The notes under the pieces: model-generated
Told to the model about the DNA's origin: nothing
What the model saw: only the letters and a program-made list of their open reading frames with translations
Database searches by the model: none
Assembly (NCBI GenBank): GCA_964452635.1
Contig: CAYVMP010000006.1
Location: 1 to 37,599, forward strand
From: an uncultured Candidatus Saccharibacteria bacterium
Lineage (GTDB): Bacteria; Patescibacteriota; Minisyncoccia; Phycocordibacterales; DATDWN01
DNA length: 37,599 bases
Reading direction: 5' to 3'
Part shown: positions 1,285-19,446 of the stretch, in pieces
How the letters are laid out: each line of letters opens with the position of its first letter
Position numbering within the stretch: position 1 is the first letter of the stretch
Made by a program: the position numbers and the translations under genes

Positions 1285-3105
1285 ATGGAAACATTTTTCC
1301 AGACATTGTTGGGTTATTGGTGGGTTCTAGCCATCGTGTTAGTTCTCGCCTGTTACAAACTTGTTTTCCGACTGTTCGGCGCGGTTATCATTCCGCAGGA
1401 CAGTATCGGCATCGTCAACAAGAAGTTCGTTCTGTTCGGCAAGAATCGCACGCTTCCCGACGGGTGCATCATCGCACTCAACGGCGAGGCTGGTATTCAA
1501 GCCGACACGTTGGCGCCCGGGATTCATTTCGGGTTCTGGCCTTGGCAGTACGAGGTTAGGATCGAAGGATTCACTCAGATTGAGGAGGGGATGATCGGTG
1601 TTGTTGAATCTGCCGATGGCAGATCTCTCAGTGCGGGACGTGTCCTTGCAGAACGAGTAGATTGCGACTCCTTTCAGGATGCTCGCAAGTTCCTCACGGG
1701 TGGTGGTGAACGTGGACCGCAAATCACGGTGATTCCTCCAGGAACTTACCGTGTTAACATAGGTCTGTTCACGGTCGTTCAAGAGGAGGCTCTCGAGATC
1801 GAAGATAACATGGTCGGTGTTGTCACGACGCGTGAAGGCAAAGCTCTTCCGACTGGCGACATTGCGGGCGGGGAAATCCGAGGACATAAAATGTTCCAGG
1901 ATGCTCAAGCTTTCATCGATAACGGTGGATTCAAGGGTCTGCAGGAACAGGTCATGCTGGCTGGTAGATACTTCATCAATCCGCGGTTCGCAACGGTGGA
2001 AACCAAACCAATGACCGAGGTCCCGATTGCCAATGCTGGCGTCGTCATCGCTTTCGTTGGTGATGCTGGCGTCGATGTGACAGGAGAGTCATTCAAACAC
2101 GGCAACTTGGTGAAGAGGGGTCAAAAGGGTGTCTGGGTCGAGCCTCTCGATCCGGGCAAGTACCCAATCAACCCTTACACTCACAAGGTGGAATGCGTGC
2201 CAACGGCAAACGTTGTTCTCAACTGGGCAACAGGTAAAACCGAGTCTCACATGCTCGACAAAAACCTGTCCACCATCACTGTTCGTTCGTCCGACGGCTT
2301 CACGTTCAATCTCGACGTTAGTCAGATCATTCACATTCCACGCACCGATGCTCCCAAAGTCATCGCTCGCTTCGGCAGTGTGGCCAATCTGGTCACTCAG
2401 GTTCTCGAACCGACAATCGGAAACTACTTCCGCAACGCTGCGCAAGGGTCCGATGTTATCGAGTTCTTGAAGCAACGGCAACAACGCCAGAATGATGCCA
2501 AAGAGCAGATCTCTGAGGCACTCGAAGATTACAATGTCGGTGCGGTGGACACCCTCATCGGTGACATTACTCCGCCAGCATCGCTCATGACAACTCTCAC
2601 CAACCGAAAGTTGGCTGAGCAGGAGAAGATTACGTACGATACGCAACGTCTGGCCGAGGATACCCGTAAGGAGCTTCAGCAAGCGAAAGCGCTAGCAGAT
2701 ACGCAGGCGCGAGTGGTAGACGCGGAACGGAGTGTTCAAATCGCCGAGTTCAATGCGAAAGCCACAGTCAAGAAGGCTGAGGGTGACGCACTTTCGAAGA
2801 CAATTAACGCCAAAGCTGATGCTGAGGTTCTCACGACCGTTGGCTCGGCTGAAGGTACGAAGATCACGGCAGTCGGTGAGGCAGAGGCGAAGGTTATCCA
2901 GTTAAAGACCAACGCGGTTGGTCCGGGTAACTATGCGATGATTGAAGTCGGCAGAGCACTGGCTGGCAGCGGCTTCAAGTTAGTGCCGGACGTGATCGCC
3001 GGTGGAGGGACTGACGGTGGAAGTTCTGGGATCATCAACGTACTTATGGCAGGAATACTAAAGGACTCGTTGAACGGTCATCGTCAGGAAGTTCCGAAGC
3101 AATAA
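1285..3105 (+). CDS. Flotillin-like SPFH/band-7 membrane protein (YqiK/FloA type). The gene is GC-rich (~58-60%) with C/G-ending codons, unlike the rest of the window
   Basis: The protein has an N-terminal TM segment, an SPFH domain and a C-terminal Ala/Glu-rich coiled coil (AEGDALSKTINAKADAEV...GEAEAKV). An RBS (AAAGGAGGG) sits 5 nt upstream. Codon usage is dominated by ATC, AAC, TTC, GTC, GGC and GAC. Confidence 0.75.
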   Translation: METFFQTLLGYWWVLAIVLVLACYKLVFRLFGAVIIPQDSIGIVNKKFVLFGKNRTLPDGCIIALNGEAGIQADTLAPGIHFGFWPWQYEVRIEGFTQIEEGMIGVVESADGRSLSAGRVLAERVDCDSFQDARKFLTGGGERGPQITVIPPGTYRVNIGLFTVVQEEALEIEDNMVGVVTTREGKALPTGDIAGGEIRGHKMFQDAQAFIDNGGFKGLQEQVMLAGRYFINPRFATVETKPMTEVPIANAGVVIAFVGDAGVDVTGESFKHGNLVKRGQKGVWVEPLDPGKYPINPYTHKVECVPTANVVLNWATGKTESHMLDKNLSTITVRSSDGFTFNLDVSQIIHIPRTDAPKVIARFGSVANLVTQVLEPTIGNYFRNAAQGSDVIEFLKQRQQRQNDAKEQISEALEDYNVGAVDTLIGDITPPASLMTTLTNRKLAEQEKITYDTQRLAEDTRKELQQAKALADTQARVVDAERSVQIAEFNAKATVKKAEGDALSKTINAKADAEVLTTVGSAEGTKITAVGEAEAKVIQLKTNAVGPGNYAMIEVGRALAGSGFKLVPDVIAGGGTDGGSSGIINVLMAGILKDSLNGHRQEVPKQ

Positions 3106-4035: not shown

Positions 4036-6177
4036 ATGTCTAAAGAATCTGAAAAAAAAGTGAAAAAGGACACGCCCACCAACGCTAAAGCTAAGGTGGA
4101 CACGTACGGAGCGGATGCAATCCAGATTTTGGAGGGTCTTGAACCCGTACGAAAGCGTCCTGGAATGTACATTGGTACGACTGGTCCAGACGGTCTTCAT
4201 CACCTTATTTGGGAAATTTTCGATAACTCACGTGACGAAGCCATGGGTGGTCATGCAAATGACATTGAGGTTACACTTTTGCCCAACAACCGTATCCGTG
4301 TTACGGACAATGGTCGTGGTATTCCAGTAGATATTCATAAACAGACCAAGGTGTCTGCGCTTGAAACCATTATGACAACACTCCACGCAGGAGGAAAGTT
4401 TGGTGGTGAAGACGGTGGCTACAAAGTGTCTGGAGGTCTGCACGGCGTGGGAGCATCGGTAGTTAACGCACTCTCTATTTATTGTAAAGTAACTGTTCAT
4501 AAGGACGGAGGTGTGTACATGCAGGAGTACTCTCAAGGCAAGAAAAAAGCACTTGTAAAGAAGATTGGAAGTACTAAAGAACAGGGAACGATTGTTCTCT
4601 TTGAACCTGATACAGCAATCTTTCAATCAGTTGAGTTTGATTTTGACCGAGTGGTCAACCATTTGCGCCAGCAGGCGTATCTCGTGAAGGGCTTGCGGAT
4701 TACAGTCAACGATGCACGTGAATATGCAGGAAAAATAAAAGAGGACGATACATTTAAAATATCTGAGCTTGGGTTGGAAATCCCATCAATGTCATTCTAT
4801 TTCGAAGGAGGTTTACTCTCTCTCGTCAAATTCTACAATAGTACTCAAAAACCGATTCATAAAAATATTTTCTATATTGAGAAAAATACAAACGAGTATG
4901 AGTCTGTTGAGGTATCCCTTCAGTACGTTGACGATATCTCATGTCGAATACTTCCATTTGCAAACAATATTTATAACCCCGAAGGAGGTACGCATGTAAC
5001 GGGATTTAAAACCGCACTGACACGTATTTTGAATGCGTACGCTCGTAAAAATAATTTGATAAAAGAAAGTGAAGATAACTTCACTGGTGACGATGTTCTC
5101 GAGGGTTTGACCGCAGTAATCTCCGTGAAGCTACGAGAGATTCAGTTCGAAGGTCAGACTAAAGCAAAACTCGGTACTGTCGAGGCACAGAGTTCAGTCA
5201 ACACAGTATTCTCTGAAGGATTCACATACTTCCTCGAGGAGAACCCAGATGATGCTCGATCAATCATTTCTAAAGTAGTTCTCGCACTCAAAGCTCGAAA
5301 GGCTGCAAAGGCTGCAAAGGATTCCGTGCTCCGTAAGGGTGTGCTTGAAGGTATGACACTCCCTGGTAAACTTGCCGACTGTCAGTCAAAGAGTTCTGAG
5401 GATTCTGAGCTCTTCATTGTGGAGGGAGATTCTGCAGGTGGTACTGCAAAGACTGGTCGTGATCGACGCACACAGGCGATACTTCCACTTCGAGGAAAGA
5501 TTCTTAACATTGAACGTGCACGTCTCGACCGAATGCTTGAGTCAGAACAGATCAAAAATCTCGTGCTTGCACTTGGAACTGCTATTGGTGATACGTTTGA
5601 TATTGCAAAACTTCGATATCACAAAGTGATTATTGCTACCGATGCAGACGTGGACGGTGCGCATATTCGAACATTGATTCTCACACTTTTTTATAGATTT
5701 TTCCGACCGCTTATTGATGGGGGATTCATATATATTGCTCAACCACCACTCTATAAAATAAAGAAAGGCAAGGAGGTCCACTACGCATATTCAGATGAGG
5801 AGAAGGCGGGTATTGTCGGAAAAGCTGAAGTCGCTGAGATTGGAGAAATCAGCGAGGAAGACCTTGCCCTGCGTAGCTCAAGTGAAGCGCAGAGCGAAGC
5901 AGGGGAAGATGCTGACACTCCTGCTTCGCCAAAGGCTTCGCAGGATAAAGCTAAAGCTTTGAAGATCTCTATTCAACGATACAAAGGTCTCGGAGAGATG
6001 AATGCTGAGGAACTCTGGGAGACAACGATGGACCCTGCTCGTCGAATACTCAAACAAGTTACTGTTGAGGATGGTGTGTCTGCTGACAAGGTATTCGATA
6101 TTCTCATGGGAAGTGACGTTCCATCTCGAAAGTCGTTCATTCAATCAAACGCAACTAAGGCAAATCTTGATATATAA
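4036..6177 (+). CDS. gyrB: DNA gyrase subunit B, with a ~35-40 aa low-complexity insertion in the C-terminal linker that contains a repeated palindromic element
   Basis: The ATPase (GHKL), transducer and Toprim domains are recognisable, including EGDSAGG, PLRGKILN and IQRYKGLGEMN motifs. The linker between YAYSDEE and IQRYKGLGEM is ~60 aa, versus ~20 aa in typical GyrB. Confidence 0.95.
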   Translation: MSKESEKKVKKDTPTNAKAKVDTYGADAIQILEGLEPVRKRPGMYIGTTGPDGLHHLIWEIFDNSRDEAMGGHANDIEVTLLPNNRIRVTDNGRGIPVDIHKQTKVSALETIMTTLHAGGKFGGEDGGYKVSGGLHGVGASVVNALSIYCKVTVHKDGGVYMQEYSQGKKKALVKKIGSTKEQGTIVLFEPDTAIFQSVEFDFDRVVNHLRQQAYLVKGLRITVNDAREYAGKIKEDDTFKISELGLEIPSMSFYFEGGLLSLVKFYNSTQKPIHKNIFYIEKNTNEYESVEVSLQYVDDISCRILPFANNIYNPEGGTHVTGFKTALTRILNAYARKNNLIKESEDNFTGDDVLEGLTAVISVKLREIQFEGQTKAKLGTVEAQSSVNTVFSEGFTYFLEENPDDARSIISKVVLALKARKAAKAAKDSVLRKGVLEGMTLPGKLADCQSKSSEDSELFIVEGDSAGGTAKTGRDRRTQAILPLRGKILNIERARLDRMLESEQIKNLVLALGTAIGDTFDIAKLRYHKVIIATDADVDGAHIRTLILTLFYRFFRPLIDGGFIYIAQPPLYKIKKGKEVHYAYSDEEKAGIVGKAEVAEIGEISEEDLALRSSSEAQSEAGEDADTPASPKASQDKAKALKISIQRYKGLGEMNAEELWETTMDPARRILKQVTVEDGVSADKVFDILMGSDVPSRKSFIQSNATKANLDI
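5865..5904. repeat. 40-nt palindrome-ended element, tgccctgcgtagctcaagtgaagcgcagagcgaagcaggg, inserted in-frame in gyrB and encoding ALRSSSEAQSEAG. An identical copy sits at 17574-17613 in smc. Further GCGAAGC/GCTTCGC palindromes follow in gyrB up to ~5942
   Basis: The 40 nt are identical at both loci. The ends are inverted repeats (ccctgc / gcaggg), and the 10-bp inverted repeat gcgaagcagg / cctgcttcgc lies at 5893-5926. Confidence 0.8.
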
Positions 6178-6483: not shown

Positions 6484-8235
6484 CTATTTCTTCTCTTTTA
6501 TTTCCGTAACAAGTTTTTGCACGAGATCATCGAGTGACATCTGTCCAAGTTGTCCATGATCTCGGGATTCAAGAGTGACTTTATTCGCCTCAATTTCTTT
6601 ATCACCAATGACAATCCAATATGGAATTTTATTATTTTTTGCATCGCGGACTTTTTTGCCGAGATTTTCATCTGCATCATCTAGCTCGACACGAACATCT
6701 GAGTTTCTGAGTGTTTCAAATACCTGACGAGCATAGTCAGTATGATTTACCCTTACAGGGATGACTTTGACCTGTCGCGGTGAGAGCCACAGAGGGAAAT
6801 TTCCTGCAAAGTGTTCGATCATTACTCCCATGAATCGCTCGAGGGATCCAGATATTGCACGATGAATAACCACAGGTCGTTCCTGCTCACCCTTCTCGTT
6901 TGTAAACGAGAGATTAAATCGTTCAGGTAGGTTAAAGTCACACTGGATTGTGGCAAGTTGCCATTCACGACCAATGGCGTCTTTGAACATGACATCGAGC
7001 GTTGGTCCGTAGAATGCTGCTTCCCCCGGTCCGAGTTTGTAGTTGAGTTGGTTTGACTGAGCAACGTCCTCAAGTATTTTCTCCGCTGTTGCCCAGTTTT
7101 CTTCTGTTCCAATGTATTGGCTTTTATCCTCACCGCGAGTAGAGAGTCGTACCCAATAACCCTCTAGCATTCCCATTGTTGTGTAGAATTCTCTAATGAT
7201 TCCCGCAATCGTTCCGGCCTCATCTTTGATCTGAGACATTCTGCAGAACAAATGACCATCATCCTGTGTAATCGCGCGTACTCGAGTGAGTCCTGAAAGC
7301 TGACCCTTTTTCTCATCACGGTAGATAGTTGCAGGTTCAAAATATCGAACAGGCATATCGCGATATGAAAATTGATTGTCAGCAAAGATTTGCATGTGAT
7401 GCGGACAGTTCATCGGCTTCATGAAGAATTTTTCTTCTTTGCCCTGTACTCTAAAAAGCTCATCACCAAACTTTGATGCATGTCCAGATGTTTCGTAGAG
7501 TGCCTCCTTTGCAATGTGTGGTGTCCATACACGAGAGTATCCTTTATTTCTATGAAGACTCCATAGGTAATCCTCGATTTCCTTGCGAATAATCATACCG
7601 TTTGGTTGCATGAGTGGGAGTCCAGAACCAATGAGGTCGGAAACAGTAAAGAGTTTCATTTCTTTTCCGATAATTCGATGATCTCGTTTTTTAGCTTCTT
7701 CAACTTGCCATTCATATTTTTCTAAATCCGCTTTGGATTCAAACGCAAGTCCGTATATACGAGTGAGCATTTTGTTTTCTTCATTACCTCTCCAGTATGC
7801 ACCGGCAATACGTTCGAGTTTCCATGAGTCAGAAGGAATACTACTTACATCATCACTGTGTCCACCACGACATAGGTCAGTAAATGAATTTTTTCCTTCG
7901 CCAGAAGTGTATGTAGTGATAGTCTCTCCCTTGGCATTGATTTCCTCTACGAGTTCTAGTTTGTATGGGTTGTGTGAGAAGTATTCCCGTGCCTCTGCCA
8001 ATGACAGTTCTTTTTTGGAAAAACCTTTCCATGTTTTTCCAATCTGACGCATTTTTTGTTCGATTTTTTCAAAATCTTTGTCTGAAATAGGGGACATGAA
8101 TTCAAAGTCGTAGTAGAACCCAGTGTCGGTCGCGGGTCCTATCGTTGGGAGTGTTTGTGGATACAAATCGAGAATGGCGCAGGCCAATAGATGAGCAAGA
8201 GAATGTCGTATGTGAGGCAATTTTTCGTGTTCCAT
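6484..8235 (-). CDS. thrS: Threonine--tRNA ligase lacking the N-terminal TGS domain; the start is probably the ATG giving MEHEKLPHIRHS..., not the upstream TTG at 8265
   Basis: The N2 editing-domain motif HIRHSLAHLLACAI is present, followed by a class II catalytic core and a C-terminal anticodon-binding domain. ATG lies at 8233-8235 on the − strand. Confidence 0.9.
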   Translation of the reverse strand: MEHEKLPHIRHSLAHLLACAILDLYPQTLPTIGPATDTGFYYDFEFMSPISDKDFEKIEQKMRQIGKTWKGFSKKELSLAEAREYFSHNPYKLELVEEINAKGETITTYTSGEGKNSFTDLCRGGHSDDVSSIPSDSWKLERIAGAYWRGNEENKMLTRIYGLAFESKADLEKYEWQVEEAKKRDHRIIGKEMKLFTVSDLIGSGLPLMQPNGMIIRKEIEDYLWSLHRNKGYSRVWTPHIAKEALYETSGHASKFGDELFRVQGKEEKFFMKPMNCPHHMQIFADNQFSYRDMPVRYFEPATIYRDEKKGQLSGLTRVRAITQDDGHLFCRMSQIKDEAGTIAGIIREFYTTMGMLEGYWVRLSTRGEDKSQYIGTEENWATAEKILEDVAQSNQLNYKLGPGEAAFYGPTLDVMFKDAIGREWQLATIQCDFNLPERFNLSFTNEKGEQERPVVIHRAISGSLERFMGVMIEHFAGNFPLWLSPRQVKVIPVRVNHTDYARQVFETLRNSDVRVELDDADENLGKKVRDAKNNKIPYWIVIGDKEIEANKVTLESRDHGQLGQMSLDDLVQKLVTEIKEKK

Positions 8236-15669: not shown

Positions 15670-17961
15670 ATGTATCTCAAATCAATCGAACTTTCTGGAT
15701 TCAAATCATTCGCAAAGAAAAGCGAGTTGCTTTTCAACTCGTCAATTTCTGCTATCGTTGGACCAAACGGATCGGGAAAGTCGAACATTGCGGAGGCATT
15801 CCGGTTTGTACTCGGTGAACAGTCCATCAAATCACTCCGTGGGAAAAAGGGTGAGGACCTCATATTCAACGGTGCAGGGGATTTGCCACGATCAAACCGT
15901 GCATCAGTGAAAGTCGTGTTCGACAATAGTAGTAAATTTCTACCAGTTGATTTTCAAGAGGTGACTATCGAGCGAGTCGTCCATCGAGACTCAGTCAATG
16001 AATACCTCATAAATGGCTCACAGGTTCGTCTCAAGGATGTGATTGAACTTCTCGCTGCTGCACACATCGGAGCATCTGGACACCATATCATTTCGCAGGG
16101 AGAGGCTGATCGTATTTTAAATGCAAGTGTCAAAGAACGTAAATCAATGATTGAAGATGCTCTCGGTCTCAAGATGTATCAATATAAAAAACAAGAAAGC
16201 GAACGTAAACTCGAAAAGACCCGAGAAAATATTGTACAGGTAGAATCCCTCCGGCGAGAGATTCTTCCGCATATTAAATTTCTCAAGAAACAGGTTGAGA
16301 AAGTCGAGAAGGGAATTGAGCTGAAAGGTGAATTACGAGAACGTGCGATTGAGTATTGTAATCGTGAACAGGAATACATCACACGAACTACAGCCCACTT
16401 ACATGAGACGCGTTTACCACTTGAGTCGACACTTCGTGCGCTCGAAGAAGAGTTGCAGGAAGCTAAATCGATTCTTAATGCCCGCGAACACAAGGATCAA
16501 AAATCCGAAGACCTCATTCAACTTGAAAAAAGTTTACATGCAATTCGAGATGAGAAAGACAACCTCTATCGTGAGTTTGGACGCATCGATGGTGAAATGA
16601 CATCGCTCGTGCGTATGGTAAAAAAACAGGAGGAGGTTGCGCAATCATACGAACATAAAACTGTACCACTTGTATCTGTCGAATCATTGTCACAAAATAT
16701 TGAGTCAAAAGTCCACACAGTACGGGGGTGTGTGACGGATGGCGACATCACTCTTGCTCTACAGACGTGTGACGAGATTGTACGACTTGTTACTGAATTT
16801 GTTGATGACAATAAAGATAAAGTGGATATGTCACTCCTCTCTGATGCTCAAAGAGATATTGAACATTTGAAACAGTCCAAAAATGATATTGAAAGCAGAC
16901 TTCAAGATATAAAGCAAAAGGAAATACGCGTGAGTGAACAGTATACTGTGCTCAAGGAAAACATTGAAAGGGAAAAAGATTCTAATCGTGATGCAGAAAA
17001 GGCAGTATTTCGTATTATGGCAGAACAGCAGGAAGTACGATCAAAACTGCACTCCCTCGAGAGTGATGAGAATCTTTTGAAAGTAGTCTCTGAAGATTTC
17101 AAGCGAGAAATCACAGAACTTGCGGTACTACTTGGGCGTGATGTATTGCAGTTTTCGGCGTATACGTTTGACTATACCGAACCTCGTACTGCTCAGGAAG
17201 AGAGGAGAAGAATGGTTGAGAAAATCAAGATTCGTTTGGAAGAAATGGGTGCGTCGGGTAGTGATGATGTGCTAAAGGAATACACAGAGGCTACTGAGCG
17301 AGACACGTTTCTCACGAAGGAGCTTTCTGATTTGGAGGCCTCAGCCTTGTCACTGACTGGACTCATTGCGGATTTGGATACGAGACTTTCAACAGAGTTT
17401 AAAACAGGAGTAGAGAAAATCAATCGACAATTTAAGGAATACTTTGCTCTCATGTTTGGTGGAGGGGAGGCGTCTCTTTCGGTTATTGTGGAACAAAAAC
17501 GCAGGAAAAGTGATACTGGTGCAGATGATTTGTTTGGGGGTGATTCTCATGATTTGTTAGACGATGGAGGGCATGCCCTGCGTAGCTCAAGTGAAGCGCA
17601 GAGCGAAGCAGGGATTGATATCGAGGTGAGTCTTCCAAAGAAAAAGGTGAAGGGACTCATGATGCTCTCAGGTGGTGAGAGGGCACTGACATCCATCGCA
17701 CTCCTCTTTGCTATTTCTCAGGTTAATCCTCCACCGTTTATTATTCTCGATGAGACTGACGCAGCACTCGATGAAGCCAATTCAAAGAAATATGCGGACA
17801 TGATTGAAAACTTATCAAAATACTCTCAACTCATTGTGATTACACACAATAGAGAGACCATGTCCCGCGCAGGAATCCTCTACGGAGTAACGATGGGTAT
17901 GGGTGGGGGATCGAAGTTGCTGTCCGTTGCCTTTGACGAAGCTGTTTCGGTTGCAAAATAG
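15670..17961 (+). CDS. smc: SMC-family chromosome segregation ATPase, short form (~764 aa). An in-frame insertion before the LSGGE signature carries the same 40-nt element found in gyrB
   Basis: Walker A GPNGSGKSN, a long coiled coil, the LSGGERALTSIALLFAI signature and the Walker B motif ILDETDAALD are all present. The start is chosen at MYLKSIELSGFKSF. Confidence 0.85.
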   Translation: MYLKSIELSGFKSFAKKSELLFNSSISAIVGPNGSGKSNIAEAFRFVLGEQSIKSLRGKKGEDLIFNGAGDLPRSNRASVKVVFDNSSKFLPVDFQEVTIERVVHRDSVNEYLINGSQVRLKDVIELLAAAHIGASGHHIISQGEADRILNASVKERKSMIEDALGLKMYQYKKQESERKLEKTRENIVQVESLRREILPHIKFLKKQVEKVEKGIELKGELRERAIEYCNREQEYITRTTAHLHETRLPLESTLRALEEELQEAKSILNAREHKDQKSEDLIQLEKSLHAIRDEKDNLYREFGRIDGEMTSLVRMVKKQEEVAQSYEHKTVPLVSVESLSQNIESKVHTVRGCVTDGDITLALQTCDEIVRLVTEFVDDNKDKVDMSLLSDAQRDIEHLKQSKNDIESRLQDIKQKEIRVSEQYTVLKENIEREKDSNRDAEKAVFRIMAEQQEVRSKLHSLESDENLLKVVSEDFKREITELAVLLGRDVLQFSAYTFDYTEPRTAQEERRRMVEKIKIRLEEMGASGSDDVLKEYTEATERDTFLTKELSDLEASALSLTGLIADLDTRLSTEFKTGVEKINRQFKEYFALMFGGGEASLSVIVEQKRRKSDTGADDLFGGDSHDLLDDGGHALRSSSEAQSEAGIDIEVSLPKKKVKGLMMLSGGERALTSIALLFAISQVNPPPFIILDETDAALDEANSKKYADMIENLSKYSQLIVITHNRETMSRAGILYGVTMGMGGGSKLLSVAFDEAVSVAK
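17574..17613. repeat. Second copy of the 40-nt palindrome-ended in-frame element (identical to 5865-5904). A perfect 10-bp palindrome, gggcatgccc, is created at its 5' junction
   Basis: Exact 40/40 identity with the gyrB copy, translated in the same frame (ALRSSSEAQSEAG). Confidence 0.8.
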
Positions 17962-18014
17962 CTCCTTGATTATTTTGTAAAAAAGTGTAGAAATATGTGT
18001 GGAGGTAAGCGAAA

Positions 18015-18638
18015 ATGTCCAATAAGTTTCTGGGGGTGCCTAAACCCTTTAAACTCCCACTGTTGGAGGAAAGATTGTGTGAACATAAAATCCCTACATT
18101 ATGGGATGATTCGATGTCTATCGGGTTATATATGGTGTACGCCACTGACGATGATGGACAAGAGAATTTGGAGGAGTTTTGTAAAAAACATCCTTCTAAA
18201 AAATACTTGGTTAGCATGAGTGAATTTGTGCTGACCTGTATTCAAGGAGTTCTGTTTGTGCTTTTTTTGGTAATACCCGCGTCTACAATAGGGAAACCCA
18301 GTATTCCTCAGAATGTCGCTTTGTCCATTATCGAGATGATTATATTAGCTGTGTTCATTTTCTCCCCTAGTTACATAAAGAAGTTGCAGTATACTTTGCG
18401 TGGGAGAGGATGGTCGGAATCTAACCCAGCACTGTTTGCCCATGAGCATCCAATGGATGTTATCAAGCAAATCTGCGGGTGTTCTACAGATGACTGTACT
18501 CACTCACCATTTAATTTCTTGGTGTCGCACCACCCAAGAAATCCTACTCGATTCCTGTCTGTTAAGGGACCAGATACTGGTCCTGCGAGAGTGTACTTCC
18601 TCGCTTCGTGGGAAAAACCATCAGAAAAATCAGAGTAG
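18015..18638 (+). CDS. Small membrane protein, paralog 1 (207 aa), with two predicted TM helices and a Cys/His-rich C-terminal region (ICGC...C.H...HHPRNPTRFLSV...YFLASWEKPSEKSE)
   Basis: RBS GGAGGT; promoter TTGATT-N16-TAGAAA; its own terminator at 18648-18676. Confidence 0.7.
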   Translation: MSNKFLGVPKPFKLPLLEERLCEHKIPTLWDDSMSIGLYMVYATDDDGQENLEEFCKKHPSKKYLVSMSEFVLTCIQGVLFVLFLVIPASTIGKPSIPQNVALSIIEMIILAVFIFSPSYIKKLQYTLRGRGWSESNPALFAHEHPMDVIKQICGCSTDDCTHSPFNFLVSHHPRNPTRFLSVKGPDTGPARVYFLASWEKPSEKSE

Positions 18639-18647
18639 AGTAGATAT

Positions 18648-18676
18648 CCTCCGGTACACGCCGGGGGATTTGTTTT
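18648..18676 (+). terminator. Intrinsic terminator of paralog 1 (cctccgg tacacg ccggggg + ATTTGTTTT)
   Basis: Stem-loop plus T-run; an identical copy lies at 19415-19446. Confidence 0.6.
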
Positions 18677-18766
18677 ATATCAATCCGTAGCGAGAATTTC
18701 ATCAAAAATCTTTCTACCTTGATTATTTTGTAAAAAAGTGTAGAAATATGGGTGGAGGTACGTGAA

Positions 18767-19405
18767 ATGTCAGATAAGTTTACGGGTACGTTTAAGCCCT
18801 TCGAGTACCCAGCGTTGGAGTTGGAACACCGTCTCCATAGTCGTAGCGTAGTGGTATCTGAAGAGCCATCTCAAGTGGTTCTGTATATGGTGTACGGTAA
18901 GGATTATGATGCACTTGCAAACCGAGAGGAGTTTTGTGAAAAACATCCTTTCCAGAAGTATTTTGTTGGAATGAGTGAGTTCGCGTATGCTTCCTTTATC
19001 CTTCTTGTTGGCTTATTGTTTCTGTTTACAACTGTCATAGCCTTTACTGGAGAACGAGGATTCACTACCCAGAACATACTAAAAAGCATTTTTATGATAG
19101 TTGTGATTTATCTCTGTATTTTTTCCCCCAGATACATAGAAAGACTAAACCATTCTTTGGAGGGTAGGGAATGGACGACTTCCCCTCCATCACATTTTAC
19201 CAATGAGAATTCGATGGATAGCATGAAAATAATCTGTGGTTGTCTCGATGCGGTTTCAAAATGTGCTCACCCAGGGTTTATTTTTAAGGTGTGGCACCAC
19301 CCACGCAATCCTACTCGGTTTCTGTCGGTTGAAAGTGTTCGTTCTGAAGGCAGAAGAAGATATTTCCTCGCCTCGTGGGAAAAACCATCAGAAAAATCAG
19401 AGTAG
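18767..19405 (+). CDS. Small membrane protein, paralog 2 (212 aa) of the same family. The start is the ATG after GGAGGT, not the upstream GTG
   Basis: It shares the N-terminal MS.KF.G..KPF, LYMVY, EEFC.KHP, FSP.YI, ICGC and HHPRNPTRFLSV...YFLASWEKPSEKSE motifs with paralog 1. Confidence 0.7.
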   Translation: MSDKFTGTFKPFEYPALELEHRLHSRSVVVSEEPSQVVLYMVYGKDYDALANREEFCEKHPFQKYFVGMSEFAYASFILLVGLLFLFTTVIAFTGERGFTTQNILKSIFMIVVIYLCIFSPRYIERLNHSLEGREWTTSPPSHFTNENSMDSMKIICGCLDAVSKCAHPGFIFKVWHHPRNPTRFLSVESVRSEGRRRYFLASWEKPSEKSE

Positions 19406-19414
19406 AGTAGATAT

Positions 19415-19446
19415 CCTCCGGTACACGCCGGGGGATTTGTTTTTTT
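19415..19446 (+). terminator. Intrinsic terminator of paralog 2, convergent with the rnr 3' end
   Basis: Identical hairpin plus T-run. Confidence 0.6.

What the first reader, a model, noticed from the sequence alone, without database searches (positions are those of the whole stretch)
17574..17613. smc copy of the 40-nt in-frame element, creating a gggcatgccc palindrome at its junction
This is the second locus of the element described at 5865-5904. In smc it lies within a ~35-aa extra segment (EQKRRKSDTGADDLFGGDSHDLLDDGGHALRSSSEAQSEAG) between the conserved GGGEASL and GIDIEV...LSGGE regions. The different flanking sequence at the two loci argues for insertion and against a local duplication.
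Basis: seen in the sequence. Interest (0 to 1): 0.55.

Follow-up and report, generated by a model that had tools for sequence, protein, structure and literature searches.

The report
In-frame palindromic hairpin element in smc
A 42-base hairpin-forming DNA element, from a hairpin family normally found next to tRNA genes and at gene ends in many bacterial phyla and phages, sits in frame inside flexible loops of two essential genes (smc and gyrB) of an ultra-small Patescibacteria genome; this resembles the known in-gene palindromic repeats of Rickettsia and other bacteria.

Summary
17574-17613 is an exact 40-nt copy of 5865-5904 (0 expected by chance), in the same reading frame (ALRSSSEAQSEAG).

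The real unit is 42 nt, or 14 codons, and is codon-aligned in both genes: 17572-17613 in smc and 5863-5904 in gyrB. It folds as CCCUGC / GUA / GCUC-loop-GAGC / GAA / GCAGGG.

It is not peculiar to this genome. The same basal sequence with covarying apical stems recurs in Verrucomicrobia, PVC, Saccharibacteria and Nomurabacteria genomes, in viral contigs, and in more than 120 metagenome loci. Those copies are mostly intergenic: between convergent genes, or flush against tRNA genes.

The ~35-aa "extra segment" of SMC is a variable acidic loop shared by all 120 close homologues. It is 41 aa here, against 8 aa in B. subtilis SMC. Most homologues lack the element. A few scattered lineages carry a shorter 27-nt version at the same site. 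None of 120 GyrB homologues has it.

Best reading: a REP/RPE-like, non-autonomous palindromic element tolerated in disordered linkers. Its mobilising mechanism is unknown, and no transposase lies in the window.

Verdict: new member of a known kind, moderate interest. The cross-phylum hairpin family is the more intriguing part.

The parts
17572..17613 (+). smc copy of the 42-nt (14-codon) element, CATG + 38-nt hairpin. It encodes HALRSSSEAQSEAG (SMC residues 635-648, counted from the ATG at 15670). Its last codon, GGG, is the invariant Gly of GIDIEV.
17576..17613 (+). The hairpin proper: CCCTGC / GTA / GCTC-AAGTGAAGCGCA-GAGC / GAA / GCAGGG. It has a 6-bp outer stem, a 3x3 internal loop, a 4-bp inner stem and a 12-nt apical part that can add a GUG/CGC stem. 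It contains three GC-GNA-GC-like heptamers (GCGTAGC, GTGAAGC, GCGAAGC).
   Evidence: dG -18.5 kcal/mol, z -3.2; consensus structure with compensatory changes in the inner stem
17569..17578 (.). GGGCATGCCC 10-nt palindrome at the 5' junction, formed by the host GGG codon plus the element's CATGCCC. It is probably incidental.
   Evidence: it is absent at the gyrB copy and from the family flanks
17491..17613 (+). Variable acidic loop of the SMC C-terminal head half (about residues 608-648), between strands E600-607 and E647-654. It hosts the element.
   Evidence: variable in all 120 homologues; 41 aa vs 8 aa in 5xg3; residues 610-644 have pLDDT <50 and are coil, in a low-confidence model
5863..5904 (+). 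gyrB copy of the same 42-nt element, CTTG + hairpin. It encodes LALRSSSEAQSEAG in the linker between Toprim and the C-terminal tail. Its flanks CTTG...GAAG extend the stem.
5919..5945 (+). Second, short hairpin of the same architecture in inverted orientation: TCCTGC / TTC / GCC-AAA-GGC / TTC / GCAGGA. It encodes PASPKASQ. It is 24/25 identical to a hairpin 4 nt upstream of a Saccharibacteria tRNA-Gln gene (L005). A degenerate version is present in the GyrB homologue in L018.
15670..17961 (+). smc gene (763 aa from the ATG; SMC_N/AAA family). It is the short SMC typical of this Patescibacteria clade.
4036..6177 (+). gyrB gene (713 aa).

Best explanation
The smc segment 17572-17613 is one of three copies in this window of a small, non-autonomous, hairpin-forming (REP/RPE-like) DNA element. 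The other two are in gyrB: one long copy and one short inverted copy.

The element family is defined by a conserved base, (C[T/C]TG)CCCTGC-GTA-GC...GC-GAA-GCAGGG, with a variable, covarying apical stem-loop. It normally lies outside genes, at 3' ends of genes and flush against tRNA genes, in several bacterial phyla and in phage contigs.

In this Zambryskibacteria-like (Patescibacteria) genome a copy has been placed, codon-aligned, into a disordered acidic surface loop of the SMC head, and another into the Toprim-tail linker of GyrB. In one of its four stop-free frames the element reads as a hydrophilic peptide (ALRSSSEAQSEAG), and the host loops already vary in length. The insertions are therefore tolerated and translated as part of the proteins.

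Shown:
- exact duplication
- hairpin potential
- family membership
- presence/absence among homologues
- in-frame, codon-aligned position in a variable loop

Inferred:
- The copies arose by copying from another genomic copy: ssDNA-hairpin transposition by a trans-acting HUH/Y1-type enzyme as for REPs, or template switching or recombination at the hairpin.
- They are neutral or nearly so for the proteins.
For: - The 40-nt repeat is exact, with 0 expected by chance. Both copies are in the same frame and codon-aligned as 14 codons.
- The hairpin has dG -18.5 kcal/mol and z -3.2.
- A stems-only pattern found related hairpins in GTDB species genomes. Two Verrucomicrobia copies match at 35/38 nt, which is 15 of the 18 positions the pattern did not fix. 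A PVC copy matches at 34/38. Saccharibacteria and Nomurabacteria copies end exactly at tRNA position +1.
- In a viral-contig scan that fixed only the base, about 17 of 31 loci had perfectly covarying inner stems. The converse scan, with the inner part fixed and the base free, gave roughly chance.
- Family copies lie mostly between convergent genes or 3' of genes, as REPs do.
- Several contigs carry 2-4 copies.
- Compensatory changes occur in the inner stem (column pair 14/29 is CG 10, UA 9, GC 2).
- Empty sites exist. 0 of 120 GyrB homologues carry the element, and P0234/L018 has the same linker without it. Most SMC homologues lack it.
- Its distribution on the SMC tree is patchy.
- In-frame copies exist in other genes elsewhere: a def-fmt fused ORF, a PNP_UDP_1 protein, and a GT4-GT2 ORF.
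- Published precedent: intragenic REPs, many in replication and repair genes, and Rickettsia RPEs (PMC3733652).
Against: - No transposase or RAYT gene is among the window's ORFs, and the rest of the genome could not be examined.
- Copy number looks low in Patescibacteria: one strict hit per genome, and none besides the smc site in about 130 kb of related loci. This is unlike classical high-copy REPs.
- There is no consistent target-site duplication (GAAGA in gyrB versus (A)GGG in smc).
- GTAG lies inside the hairpin, not at its end.
- Basal-sequence conservation across phyla is unusual for selfish REPs and hints at a selected function.
- Short versions at the same smc site in other lineages keep pairing through compensatory or wobble changes (L014 vs L017). 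This could mean selection on structure rather than neutrality.
- A non-palindromic module (LTLGEATT) is also shared between GyrB and SMC linkers. Linker-to-linker copying therefore does not need a hairpin.
Confidence: 0.55

Rival explanations
1. The hairpin is a functional RNA (or single-stranded DNA) module recognised by a widely conserved factor, for example a processing, stability or pause signal. The same module that flanks tRNAs has been co-opted inside the gyrB and smc mRNAs to control their processing, stability or translation. On this view the peptide is a by-product.
For: - The base of the hairpin, including a 3x3 G(U/A)A/GAA internal loop, is conserved across phyla, while the apical stem covaries.
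- In Patescibacteria, copies end exactly at tRNA +1 and recur upstream of the same tRNAs (Thr, Glu) in different genomes.
- 16 of the 17 tRNA-adjacent copies first tallied are co-oriented with the tRNA. The inverted L005 tRNA-Gln hairpin makes it 16 of 18.
- The short smc versions differ by a compensatory A/G + T/C change and by C-to-T changes that keep G-U pairing on the sense strand.
- Both gyrB hairpins have near-identical twins in Saccharibacteria tRNA leaders, in the same transcript orientation.
Against: - No Rfam 15 family matches.
- Both orientations occur relative to flanking genes: 4 same/same versus 3 opposite/opposite pairs, phage copies antisense to the operon, and the inverted L005 tRNA-Gln copy.
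- Inner stems are essentially all Watson-Crick, with no G-U excess (411 WC, 0 GT, 1 AC). This gives no strand-specific RNA signal.
- The element is absent from most orthologous smc genes and all orthologous gyrB genes, so it is not needed for their expression.
- No U-tract follows the window copies, so they are not terminators.
Confidence: 0.22
2. The repeat reflects protein-level selection for a short linear motif, roughly [DE]-L-x-L-[RGS]-...-E-A-[GT], in acidic loops of DNA-handling proteins. The nucleotide identity would come from recent gene conversion between the two similar low-complexity linkers, not from a mobile element.
For: - Related peptides recur in linkers of both proteins in different species: ELALRSLDEAGEE, ELTLGEATT, GLALSEVEGEE, ELALSVVEG.
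- The non-hairpin LTLGEATT module is shared between GyrB and SMC with near-identical DNA.
Against: - The window copies match 26/26 fixed positions of a hairpin family that is overwhelmingly non-coding in other phyla.
- Identity ends abruptly, with no flanking homology to support conversion.
- Only about 10-15% of homologues carry any such motif, and they are phylogenetically scattered.
- The inverted gyrB hairpin encodes an unrelated peptide (PASPKASQ) but has the same nucleic-acid architecture.
Confidence: 0.12
3. The sequence arose locally by slippage or template switching in GAA/GCN-rich linker DNA, for example by a 12-nt duplication AGTGAAGCGCAG/AGCGAAGCAGGG (SEAQ/SEAG). On this view it only resembles the wider hairpin family by convergence on stable GC-GNA-GC mini-hairpins.
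For: - The long form differs from 26-27-nt forms by 12 nt, and its two 12-nt halves are 8/12 identical (direct reading).
- Acidic linkers naturally generate nGC GAA GCn strings.
Against: - The same long form, apical part included, exists in a Verrucomicrobia MAG (35/38) and in metagenome contigs L074/L156 (35/38), so it was not born in this linker.
- Two identical copies in different genes need copying, not independent slippage.
Confidence: 0.06
4. Assembly or sequencing artefact, such as a chimeric join or collapsed repeat.
For: The window is a MAG contig. The exact SMC product could not be re-located in the contig index.
Against: - Both copies preserve the frame and the flanking conserved motifs.
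- Independent assemblies of related genomes carry versions at the same smc site.
- The family shows natural sequence diversity with covariation.
Confidence: 0.02

Closest known systems
Intragenic REPs (GTAG-/CGTC-tagged repetitive extragenic palindromes found inside ORFs; Di Nocera et al. 2013, PMC3733652)
   Same: - It is a short (20-40 bp) GC-rich imperfect palindrome.
- The family is mostly 3' of genes or between convergent genes.
- Some copies are entirely inside ORFs, in frame, adding 7-30 aa in flexible regions.
- Genes of DNA replication and repair are over-represented among the hosts; here the hosts are gyrB and smc.
- Inverted dimers occur, and gyrB carries an inverted pair here.
   Different: - GTAG sits in an internal loop between an outer and an inner stem, not at an unpaired end. 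Some copies have GAAG instead.
- Basal sequence is conserved across phyla, whereas REP families are usually species- or genus-specific.
- Copy number is apparently low in Patescibacteria.
- No RAYT was seen.
- None of the REP-encoded peptides listed in that paper's supplement matches.
Rickettsia palindromic elements (RPE; Ogata et al. 2000, cited from my own knowledge and mentioned in PMC3733652)
   Same: It is a palindromic repeat inserted in frame into unrelated essential genes. It is translated, located in surface or loop regions, and absent from orthologues of related species.
   Different: RPE-1 is about 100-150 bp, confined to Rickettsia and high in copy number. This element is 42 nt, has no sequence similarity to RPEs, is in Patescibacteria, and has non-coding relatives in other phyla.
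REPIN/RAYT system (Bertels & Rainey; Nunvar et al.; from my own knowledge and PMC3733652)
   Same: The elements are hairpins, sometimes in inverted pairs. The two gyrB hairpins are inverted, and their adjacent arms can pair over 10-12 bp. Such elements are thought to move as single-stranded DNA.
   Different: There is no RAYT gene in the window and no evidence of a population of REPINs. The mobilising enzyme is not identified.
d(GCGAAGC)/GNA-triloop mini-hairpins (Hirao et al.; from my own knowledge, not tested here)
   Same: The element contains GCGTAGC, GTGAAGC and GCGAAGC heptamers. Each arm could fold as a GC-GNA-GC mini-hairpin, and the 3x3 loop could form sheared G-A pairs.
   Different: That is a physico-chemical motif, not a genetic element family. 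Its relevance here is speculative.
Intrinsic terminators / 3'-UTR stabiliser hairpins
   Same: Many family members lie at gene 3' ends. A few are followed by a T-run (L089, L112, L128, L143).
   Different: The window copies are inside ORFs and have no T-run. Most family members also lack one.

Membership tests
REP (GTAG-type repetitive extragenic palindrome) | 20-40 bp imperfect palindrome able to form a stem-loop | tested here: met
   The 38-nt hairpin has dG -18.5 kcal/mol and z -3.2. The consensus structure shows compensatory pairs.
REP (GTAG-type repetitive extragenic palindrome) | Conserved GTAG (or CGTC) tetranucleotide, unpaired, at one end of the stem-loop | tested here: inconclusive
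   GTAG is present at hairpin positions 7-10, immediately 5' of the inner stem, but it is enclosed by the conserved outer stem CCCTGC/GCAGGG. The Verrucomicrobia copies have GAAG.
REP (GTAG-type repetitive extragenic palindrome) | Many copies per genome (tens to thousands) | tested here: inconclusive
   Only 37.6 kb of the genome is available, and it holds 2 long copies plus 1 short inverted copy. Other contigs hold 2-4 copies. Each Patescibacteria species genome gave one strict hit.
REP (GTAG-type repetitive extragenic palindrome) | Predominantly extragenic, downstream of ORFs or between convergent ORFs | tested here: met
   For the wider family, the convergent arrangement is the commonest class (25 loci, against 4 divergent). 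The window copies themselves are intragenic.
REP (GTAG-type repetitive extragenic palindrome) | Association with a RAYT (Y1/HUH transposase) gene | tested here: inconclusive
   No transposase domain was found in the 20 window ORFs scanned against Pfam.
Rickettsia palindromic elements / in-frame palindromic coding repeats | Inserted in frame into unrelated protein-coding genes and translated with them | tested here: met
   The insertions in gyrB and smc are codon-aligned and the ORFs are intact. Translation itself is inferred.
Rickettsia palindromic elements / in-frame palindromic coding repeats | Absent from orthologues in related genomes (empty sites) | tested here: met
   0 of 120 GyrB homologues carry it, and L018 has the same linker without it. 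Most SMC homologues lack it.
Rickettsia palindromic elements / in-frame palindromic coding repeats | Sequence similarity to RPE consensus and length about 100-150 bp | tested here: not met
   The unit is 42 nt. There is no Rfam match, and the peptides differ from the RPE/REP peptides in the PMC3733652 supplement. It works like an RPE but is not a member.
Rickettsia palindromic elements / in-frame palindromic coding repeats | Insertion lies in a surface or loop region compatible with the fold | tested here: met
   It lies between the blocks that align to 5xg3 residues 309 and 318. The AlphaFold2 model gives coil with pLDDT <50 for residues 610-644, but the model is poor overall, with pTM 0.40.
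MITE | Terminal inverted repeats plus a constant-length target-site duplication | tested here: not met
   The arms are inverted repeats, but the flanking direct repeats differ (GAAGA in gyrB, (A)GGG in smc) and fit the codon composition of the linker.
Any Rfam 15 RNA family | Covariance-model match at or near the gathering score | tested here: not met
   Only tRNA and rRNA hits appeared in the loci. Nothing overlapped the hairpins, even at E<=10 on the window segment.
Intrinsic terminator | GC-rich hairpin followed by a U/T run | tested here: not met
   The window copies are followed by GAAGATGC and ATTGATAT.

The most novel reading that the evidence does not exclude
The hairpin CCCUGC-G(U/A)A-stem/loop-GAA-GCAGGG would be an undescribed, cross-phylum nucleic-acid module recognised by a conserved trans-acting factor. 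It would spread horizontally, including on phages, and settle flush against tRNA genes, at gene ends and, in Patescibacteria, inside coding linkers. There, together with other short modules such as AEGELTLGEATT, it would be a recurrent source of the disordered loop sequences of essential proteins, with selection maintaining the structure even within ORFs.
Probability: 0.25. Interest if true: 0.7.

Novelty: new member of a known kind. Interest (0 to 1): 0.5.

Why it matters
It extends the phenomenon of 'selfish palindromes inside essential genes', known from Rickettsia, Opitutus and a few Proteobacteria, to the ultra-small, streamlined Patescibacteria, where repeats are thought to be rare.

It shows concretely how a non-coding hairpin can become part of a protein loop.

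It also exposes a hairpin family with an unusually conserved base across Verrucomicrobia/PVC, several Patescibacteria classes and phage contigs. Copies are often placed exactly at tRNA boundaries. The family is not in Rfam and is unexplained. If it has a function or a dedicated mobilising enzyme, that would be new.

For annotation, such inserts explain lineage-specific length variation in GyrB and SMC, and they can fuse adjacent genes (the def-fmt example).

Tried and rejected
- **tRNA-derived fragment.** The 5' part resembles an acceptor strand plus D-arm (GCGTAGCTCA...GAGC). ARAGORN and Rfam find no tRNA at the element or anywhere in the window. I kept this only as a remark.
- **Known RNA family.** Rfam gave nothing, both at gathering thresholds and at permissive E-values.
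- **Terminator.** The window copies have no T-run.
- **Relatives in cultured phages and plasmids.** BLAST with the 48-nt segment gave only chance-level hits, E>=3.
- **Literature by sequence string.** The search returned only unrelated PCR primers. Searches for in-frame palindromes in Patescibacteria found nothing specific.
- **Peptide census.** The query length and E-value limits blocked the 14-aa and 20-aa queries. A doubled 40-aa query returned no candidates, not even the window's own SMC, so this negative is uninformative.
- **Re-locating the source contig.** I tried by exact SMC product and found no record, so the rest of the genome could not be censused.
- **RNA-specific wobble signal.** Inner stems show no G-T excess.
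- **REPtron-like arrangement.** ORFs between paired copies in L035, L118, L022 and L076 are phage head genes, methyltransferases and similar. One small GIY-YIG-like ORF lies next to the L076 copies. None is an evident transposase (these were not run through Pfam).
- **ATGGAGGG upstream of the smc copy.** It also precedes the Verrucomicrobia copies, where it is the 3' arm of a preceding hairpin. No matching 5' arm exists in smc, so I left this as unexplained or chance.
Full report
**1. Observation**

The string TGCCCTGCGTAGCTCAAGTGAAGCGCAGAGCGAAGCAGGG occurs exactly twice in the 37.6-kb window, at 5865-5904 and 17574-17613, both on the + strand. No match appeared in 100 dinucleotide-preserving shuffles, even with 3 mismatches allowed.

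The first copy lies in the gyrB ORF (4036-6177). The second lies in the smc ORF (15670-17961 from the likely ATG). Both are read in the same frame as ALRSSSEAQSEAG.

Outside the core, identity falls to 7/12 upstream and 5/12 downstream. The three bases just upstream are CTT in gyrB and CAT in smc. The natural unit is therefore 42 nt, or 14 codons, with one mismatch. It begins at codon position 1 in both genes: 5863-5904 and 17572-17613.

GGGCATGCCC (17569-17578) is real. It is simply the host GGG codon abutting the element's CATGCCC. It has no equivalent at the gyrB copy or in other family members.

**2. Anatomy**

The 38-nt core folds as a hairpin: CCCUGC / GUA / GCUC - 12 nt - GAGC / GAA / GCAGGG. 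That is a 6-bp outer stem, a symmetric 3x3 internal loop and a 4-bp inner stem. dG is -18.5 kcal/mol and z is -3.2 against shuffles.

In gyrB, the flanking CTTG...GAAG extends the stem.

Fifteen bases downstream in gyrB there is a second, shorter hairpin with the same architecture in inverted orientation. It is TCCTGC/TTC/GCC-AAA-GGC/TTC/GCAGGA at 5919-5945, and it encodes PASPKASQ. The adjacent arms of the two gyrB hairpins can pair with each other over 10-12 bp. This arrangement recalls inverted REP dimers.

The window contains only housekeeping genes: pheT, an SPFH protein, gyrB, thrS, dnaE, rnhB, nusB-NUDIX, rnc, smc, an RNB-family exoribonuclease (by synteny), uvrA, uvrC, a class II aminoacyl-tRNA synthetase, mreB, mreC, a PBP, greA, a class IIb synthetase and others. 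It has no tRNA and no transposase.

**3. Source organism and host loops**

The closest SMC and GyrB proteins are from Candidatus Zambryskibacteria, Paceibacterota and Patescibacteria MAGs. They are 67-75% identical for SMC and 78-87% for GyrB, and gene order is conserved.

In all 120 closest SMC homologues, the stretch between MFGGGEA.LS and GIDIEV is a length-variable acidic loop. In the window protein 41 residues separate the blocks that are 8 residues apart in the B. subtilis SMC head (5xg3, residues 309 and 318).

An AlphaFold2 model gives coil with pLDDT <50 for residues 610-644, between two strands. The model is poor overall (pTM 0.40), so this is weak support.

Only its last 14 codons are the element. 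The element's terminal GGG encodes the invariant Gly of GIDIEV.

The GyrB site is the equally variable linker between YAYSDEE and IQRYKGLGEM.

**4. Presence and absence**

None of the 120 GyrB homologues contains ALRS...EAG. P0234 (L018) has the most similar linker, including a degenerate form of the second hairpin, but lacks the 42-nt unit. It therefore serves as an empty site.

Most SMC homologues lack the element too. Several carry a 27-nt version at the same place and in the same frame:
- GCTCTGCGTAGTCTTGACGAAGCAGGG (ALRSLDEAG; P0056 group)
- GCCCTGCGTAATCTTGATGAAGCAGGG (ALRNLDEAG; P0052)
- GCCTTGCGTAGCGATAGCGAGGCAGGG (ALRSDSEAG; P0006)
- a version in P0068

The differences between the first two keep pairing: ATC/GAT versus GTC/GAC in the small inner stem, and a C-to-T change giving G-U.

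On a neighbour-joining tree built without the loop, the element-bearing SMCs are scattered, and each has sisters that lack it (no bootstrap). This means either repeated gain at a permissive site or ancient presence with frequent loss.

**5. The element belongs to a widespread hairpin family**

*GTDB species genomes.* A stems-only pattern found 13 loci.
- The high-GC actinobacterial and proteobacterial hits look like chance or perfect palindromes.
- Two copies in a Verrucomicrobia MAG match the window element at 35/38 positions, which is 15 of the 18 positions the pattern did not fix.
- A PVC MAG copy matches at 34/38.
- Three Patescibacteria copies (two Saccharibacteria, one Nomurabacteria) match at 29-31/38.
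- The three Patescibacteria copies end exactly at position +1 of a tRNA gene (Thr, Gly, Glu).
- The Verrucomicrobia copies lie 38 and 140 nt downstream of tRNA genes, directly preceded by a further hairpin; in L004 that hairpin starts right after the tRNA's CCA end.

*viral contigs, base fixed.* I fixed only the base (CCCTGCGTA...GAAGCAGGG). About 17 of 31 loci showed the same architecture with different, perfectly complementary inner stems: GCGC/GCGC, GCC/GGC, GCCCC/GGGGC, GTCC/GGAC, GCT/AGC and others. The rest were unrelated chance hits.

*viral contigs, inner part fixed.* Fixing the inner part and freeing the base gave about the chance number of hits and few hairpins. The conserved signature is therefore the base.

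*Metagenomes.* A scan with 26 fixed bases stopped at its 120-locus limit. It gave 58 distinct sequences from contigs of GC 0.37-0.72.

A consensus fold of 22 representatives shows three inner pairs with compensatory changes.

No Rfam 15 family matches. Cultured phages and plasmids give nothing.

**6. Contexts of the family**

- Most copies lie between convergent genes or 3' of a gene: 25 convergent against 4 divergent among contigs of GC <=0.58. Many of these are repeated samplings of the same locus.
- Four low-GC copies abut tRNA 5' ends.
- Seven high-GC copies lie 26-88 nt 3' of a tRNA, usually behind a second hairpin ending in ...GGATG or GGTG.
- One copy sits in an rRNA spacer between tRNA-Ile and tRNA-Ala.
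- Two copies follow a tmRNA-like 3' end and have a T-run.
- 16 of the 17 tRNA-adjacent copies first tallied are co-oriented with the tRNA. The Saccharibacteria locus L005 also has an inverted-type hairpin 4 nt upstream of tRNA-Gln, which makes it 16 of 18. That hairpin is 24/25 identical to the window's second gyrB hairpin.
- Phage copies are antisense to the surrounding operon.
- Inner stems are essentially all Watson-Crick, with no G-T excess.

Orientation therefore gives no clean RNA-versus-DNA verdict.

In-frame occurrences exist elsewhere:
- a single ORF joining peptide deformylase and Fmt through an inverted copy (L082, GC 0.37)
- a PNP_UDP_1 protein with ALRSSAKRSEAG inside the domain (L141)
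- a GT4...GT2 ORF (L107)

**7. Interpretation**

The sharp boundaries, the empty sites, the perfect match to a mainly non-coding family and the codon-aligned position in length-variable disordered loops all point the same way. The best reading is a small, non-autonomous palindromic element that has been copied into gyrB and smc. It is tolerated because one of its four stop-free frames (and direct reading) gives a hydrophilic peptide.

This matches what is published for intragenic REPs and Rickettsia RPEs. Di Nocera et al. (PMC3733652) report REPs entirely within ORFs in several species, many in replication and repair genes, with the Verrucomicrobium Opitutus terrae richest in them. They argue that such inserts sit in flexible linkers.

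Not shown here:
- How the element moves. No RAYT or HUH gene is in the window and there is no consistent target duplication.
- Whether it is multi-copy in this genome.
- Whether it is translated.

Features that do not fit a purely selfish REP:
- cross-phylum conservation of the base
- exact placement at tRNA boundaries
- apparently low copy number in Patescibacteria
- structure-preserving substitutions in the smc versions

These keep a functional-hairpin reading alive (about 0.2). A peptide-motif or gene-conversion reading is weaker (about 0.1). Local slippage and artefact are unlikely.

**8. Comparison and novelty**

The element works like an RPE or an intragenic REP. It is not a member of the RPE families (different length and sequence). 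It only partly meets the REP definition: GTAG is internal, and copy number and RAYT association are untested.

I rate it a new member of a known kind.

The undescribed hairpin family, and the observation that GyrB and SMC linkers in this clade are mosaics of short shared modules, are the parts that could turn out to be more than ordinary. One such module is a second, non-palindromic one encoding AEGELTLGEATT, with 33-34/36 identical nucleotides between GyrB of two genomes and SMC of a third.

Noticed in passing
L019 11855-11877, L189 4810-4832, L188 4894-4916 (core 23 nt of a ~36-nt module): A second in-frame module is shared between GyrB and SMC linkers of different Zambryskibacteria-like genomes. 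Its sequence is GCCGAAG(G/A)C(G/A)AATTAACATTAGG(C/T)GAAGCTACGAC(A/T), encoding AE(G/D)(E/K)LTLGEATT. 33-34 of 36 nt are identical, including synonymous sites. It is not a strong hairpin. The peptide recurs in SMC P0011/14/35/66/98 and GyrB P0128/229/231/235/236. There was no hit in viral contigs.
   Followed up: partly
L005 2041-2067 (minus strand): The hairpin CCCTGCTCCGCCAAAGGCTTCGCAGGG lies 4 nt upstream of a Saccharibacteria tRNA-Gln gene. It is 24/25 identical to the window's second gyrB hairpin (5920-5944), in the same orientation relative to the transcript.
   Followed up: partly
L082 2108-3502 (minus strand): In a GC 0.37 metagenome contig, a single 465-aa ORF joins peptide deformylase (Pfam residues 7-168) and methionyl-tRNA formyltransferase (190-442). 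The join runs through an inverted copy of the hairpin (PPASLEDELRRA), with no stop codon between them. This is a possible gene fusion mediated by the element.
   Followed up: partly
L141 11658-12506 (minus strand); L107 2025-4622: A PNP_UDP_1 phosphorylase carries ALRSSAKRSEAG (the same frame as the window) inside its domain. An 866-aa ORF joins GT4/GT1 and GT2 domains across a 44-nt family member. I did not check whether these are true insertions.
   Followed up: partly
L001 3758-3936, L004 580-654, and L059, L062, L074, L076, L090, L109, L147: In high-GC (Verrucomicrobia-like) contigs the hairpin is usually preceded by a different hairpin that ends ...GGATG/GGTG, and this two-hairpin unit lies downstream of tRNA genes; in L004 it starts right after the tRNA's CCA end. 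The smc copy in the window has ATGGAGGG just upstream, like the 3' arm of that preceding hairpin in L001/L004, but it has no 5' arm.
   Followed up: no
window 17964-19443: A tandem duplication of about 755 nt lies immediately 3' of smc. It comprises two paralogous ORFs, 18015-18638 and 18752-19405, with 73-98% identical blocks and no Pfam hit. Each ORF is followed by the same GC-rich hairpin, CCTCCGGTACACGCCGGGGG.
   Followed up: no
window 2001-3000: GC content is 0.54, against about 0.42 elsewhere. The stretch lies inside the 606-aa ORF 1285-3105 (SPFH/Band 7 domain at residues 281-468). Several of the most stable local hairpins of the window lie here (2034-2077, 2127-2170).
   Followed up: no
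GyrB homologues P0132, P0138, P0159, P0196 (L020 about 7240-7290); P0122/131/135/184; P0175/194/202: Other recurrent short peptides occur in the GyrB linker of relatives: SSATRRGGG, DSAGGN and VQGEALHKG. In L020 the SSATRRGGG stretch is two tandem GC-rich mini-hairpins (GTCGCC-TCAT-CGGCGAC, CCGCC-GAGGA-GGCGG) within AT-rich acidic sequence.
   Followed up: partly
GyrB homologue P0179: This 753-aa GyrB has an apparent tandem duplication of about 50 aa (YAYSDDEKVK...), just before the variable linker.
   Followed up: no
L085 1793-2140 and L151 (Saccharibacteria-like tRNA arrays): Spacers between consecutive tRNA genes are filled by hairpins that abut the tRNA ends. They show up as spurious microRNA-like Rfam hits on both strands.
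   Followed up: no
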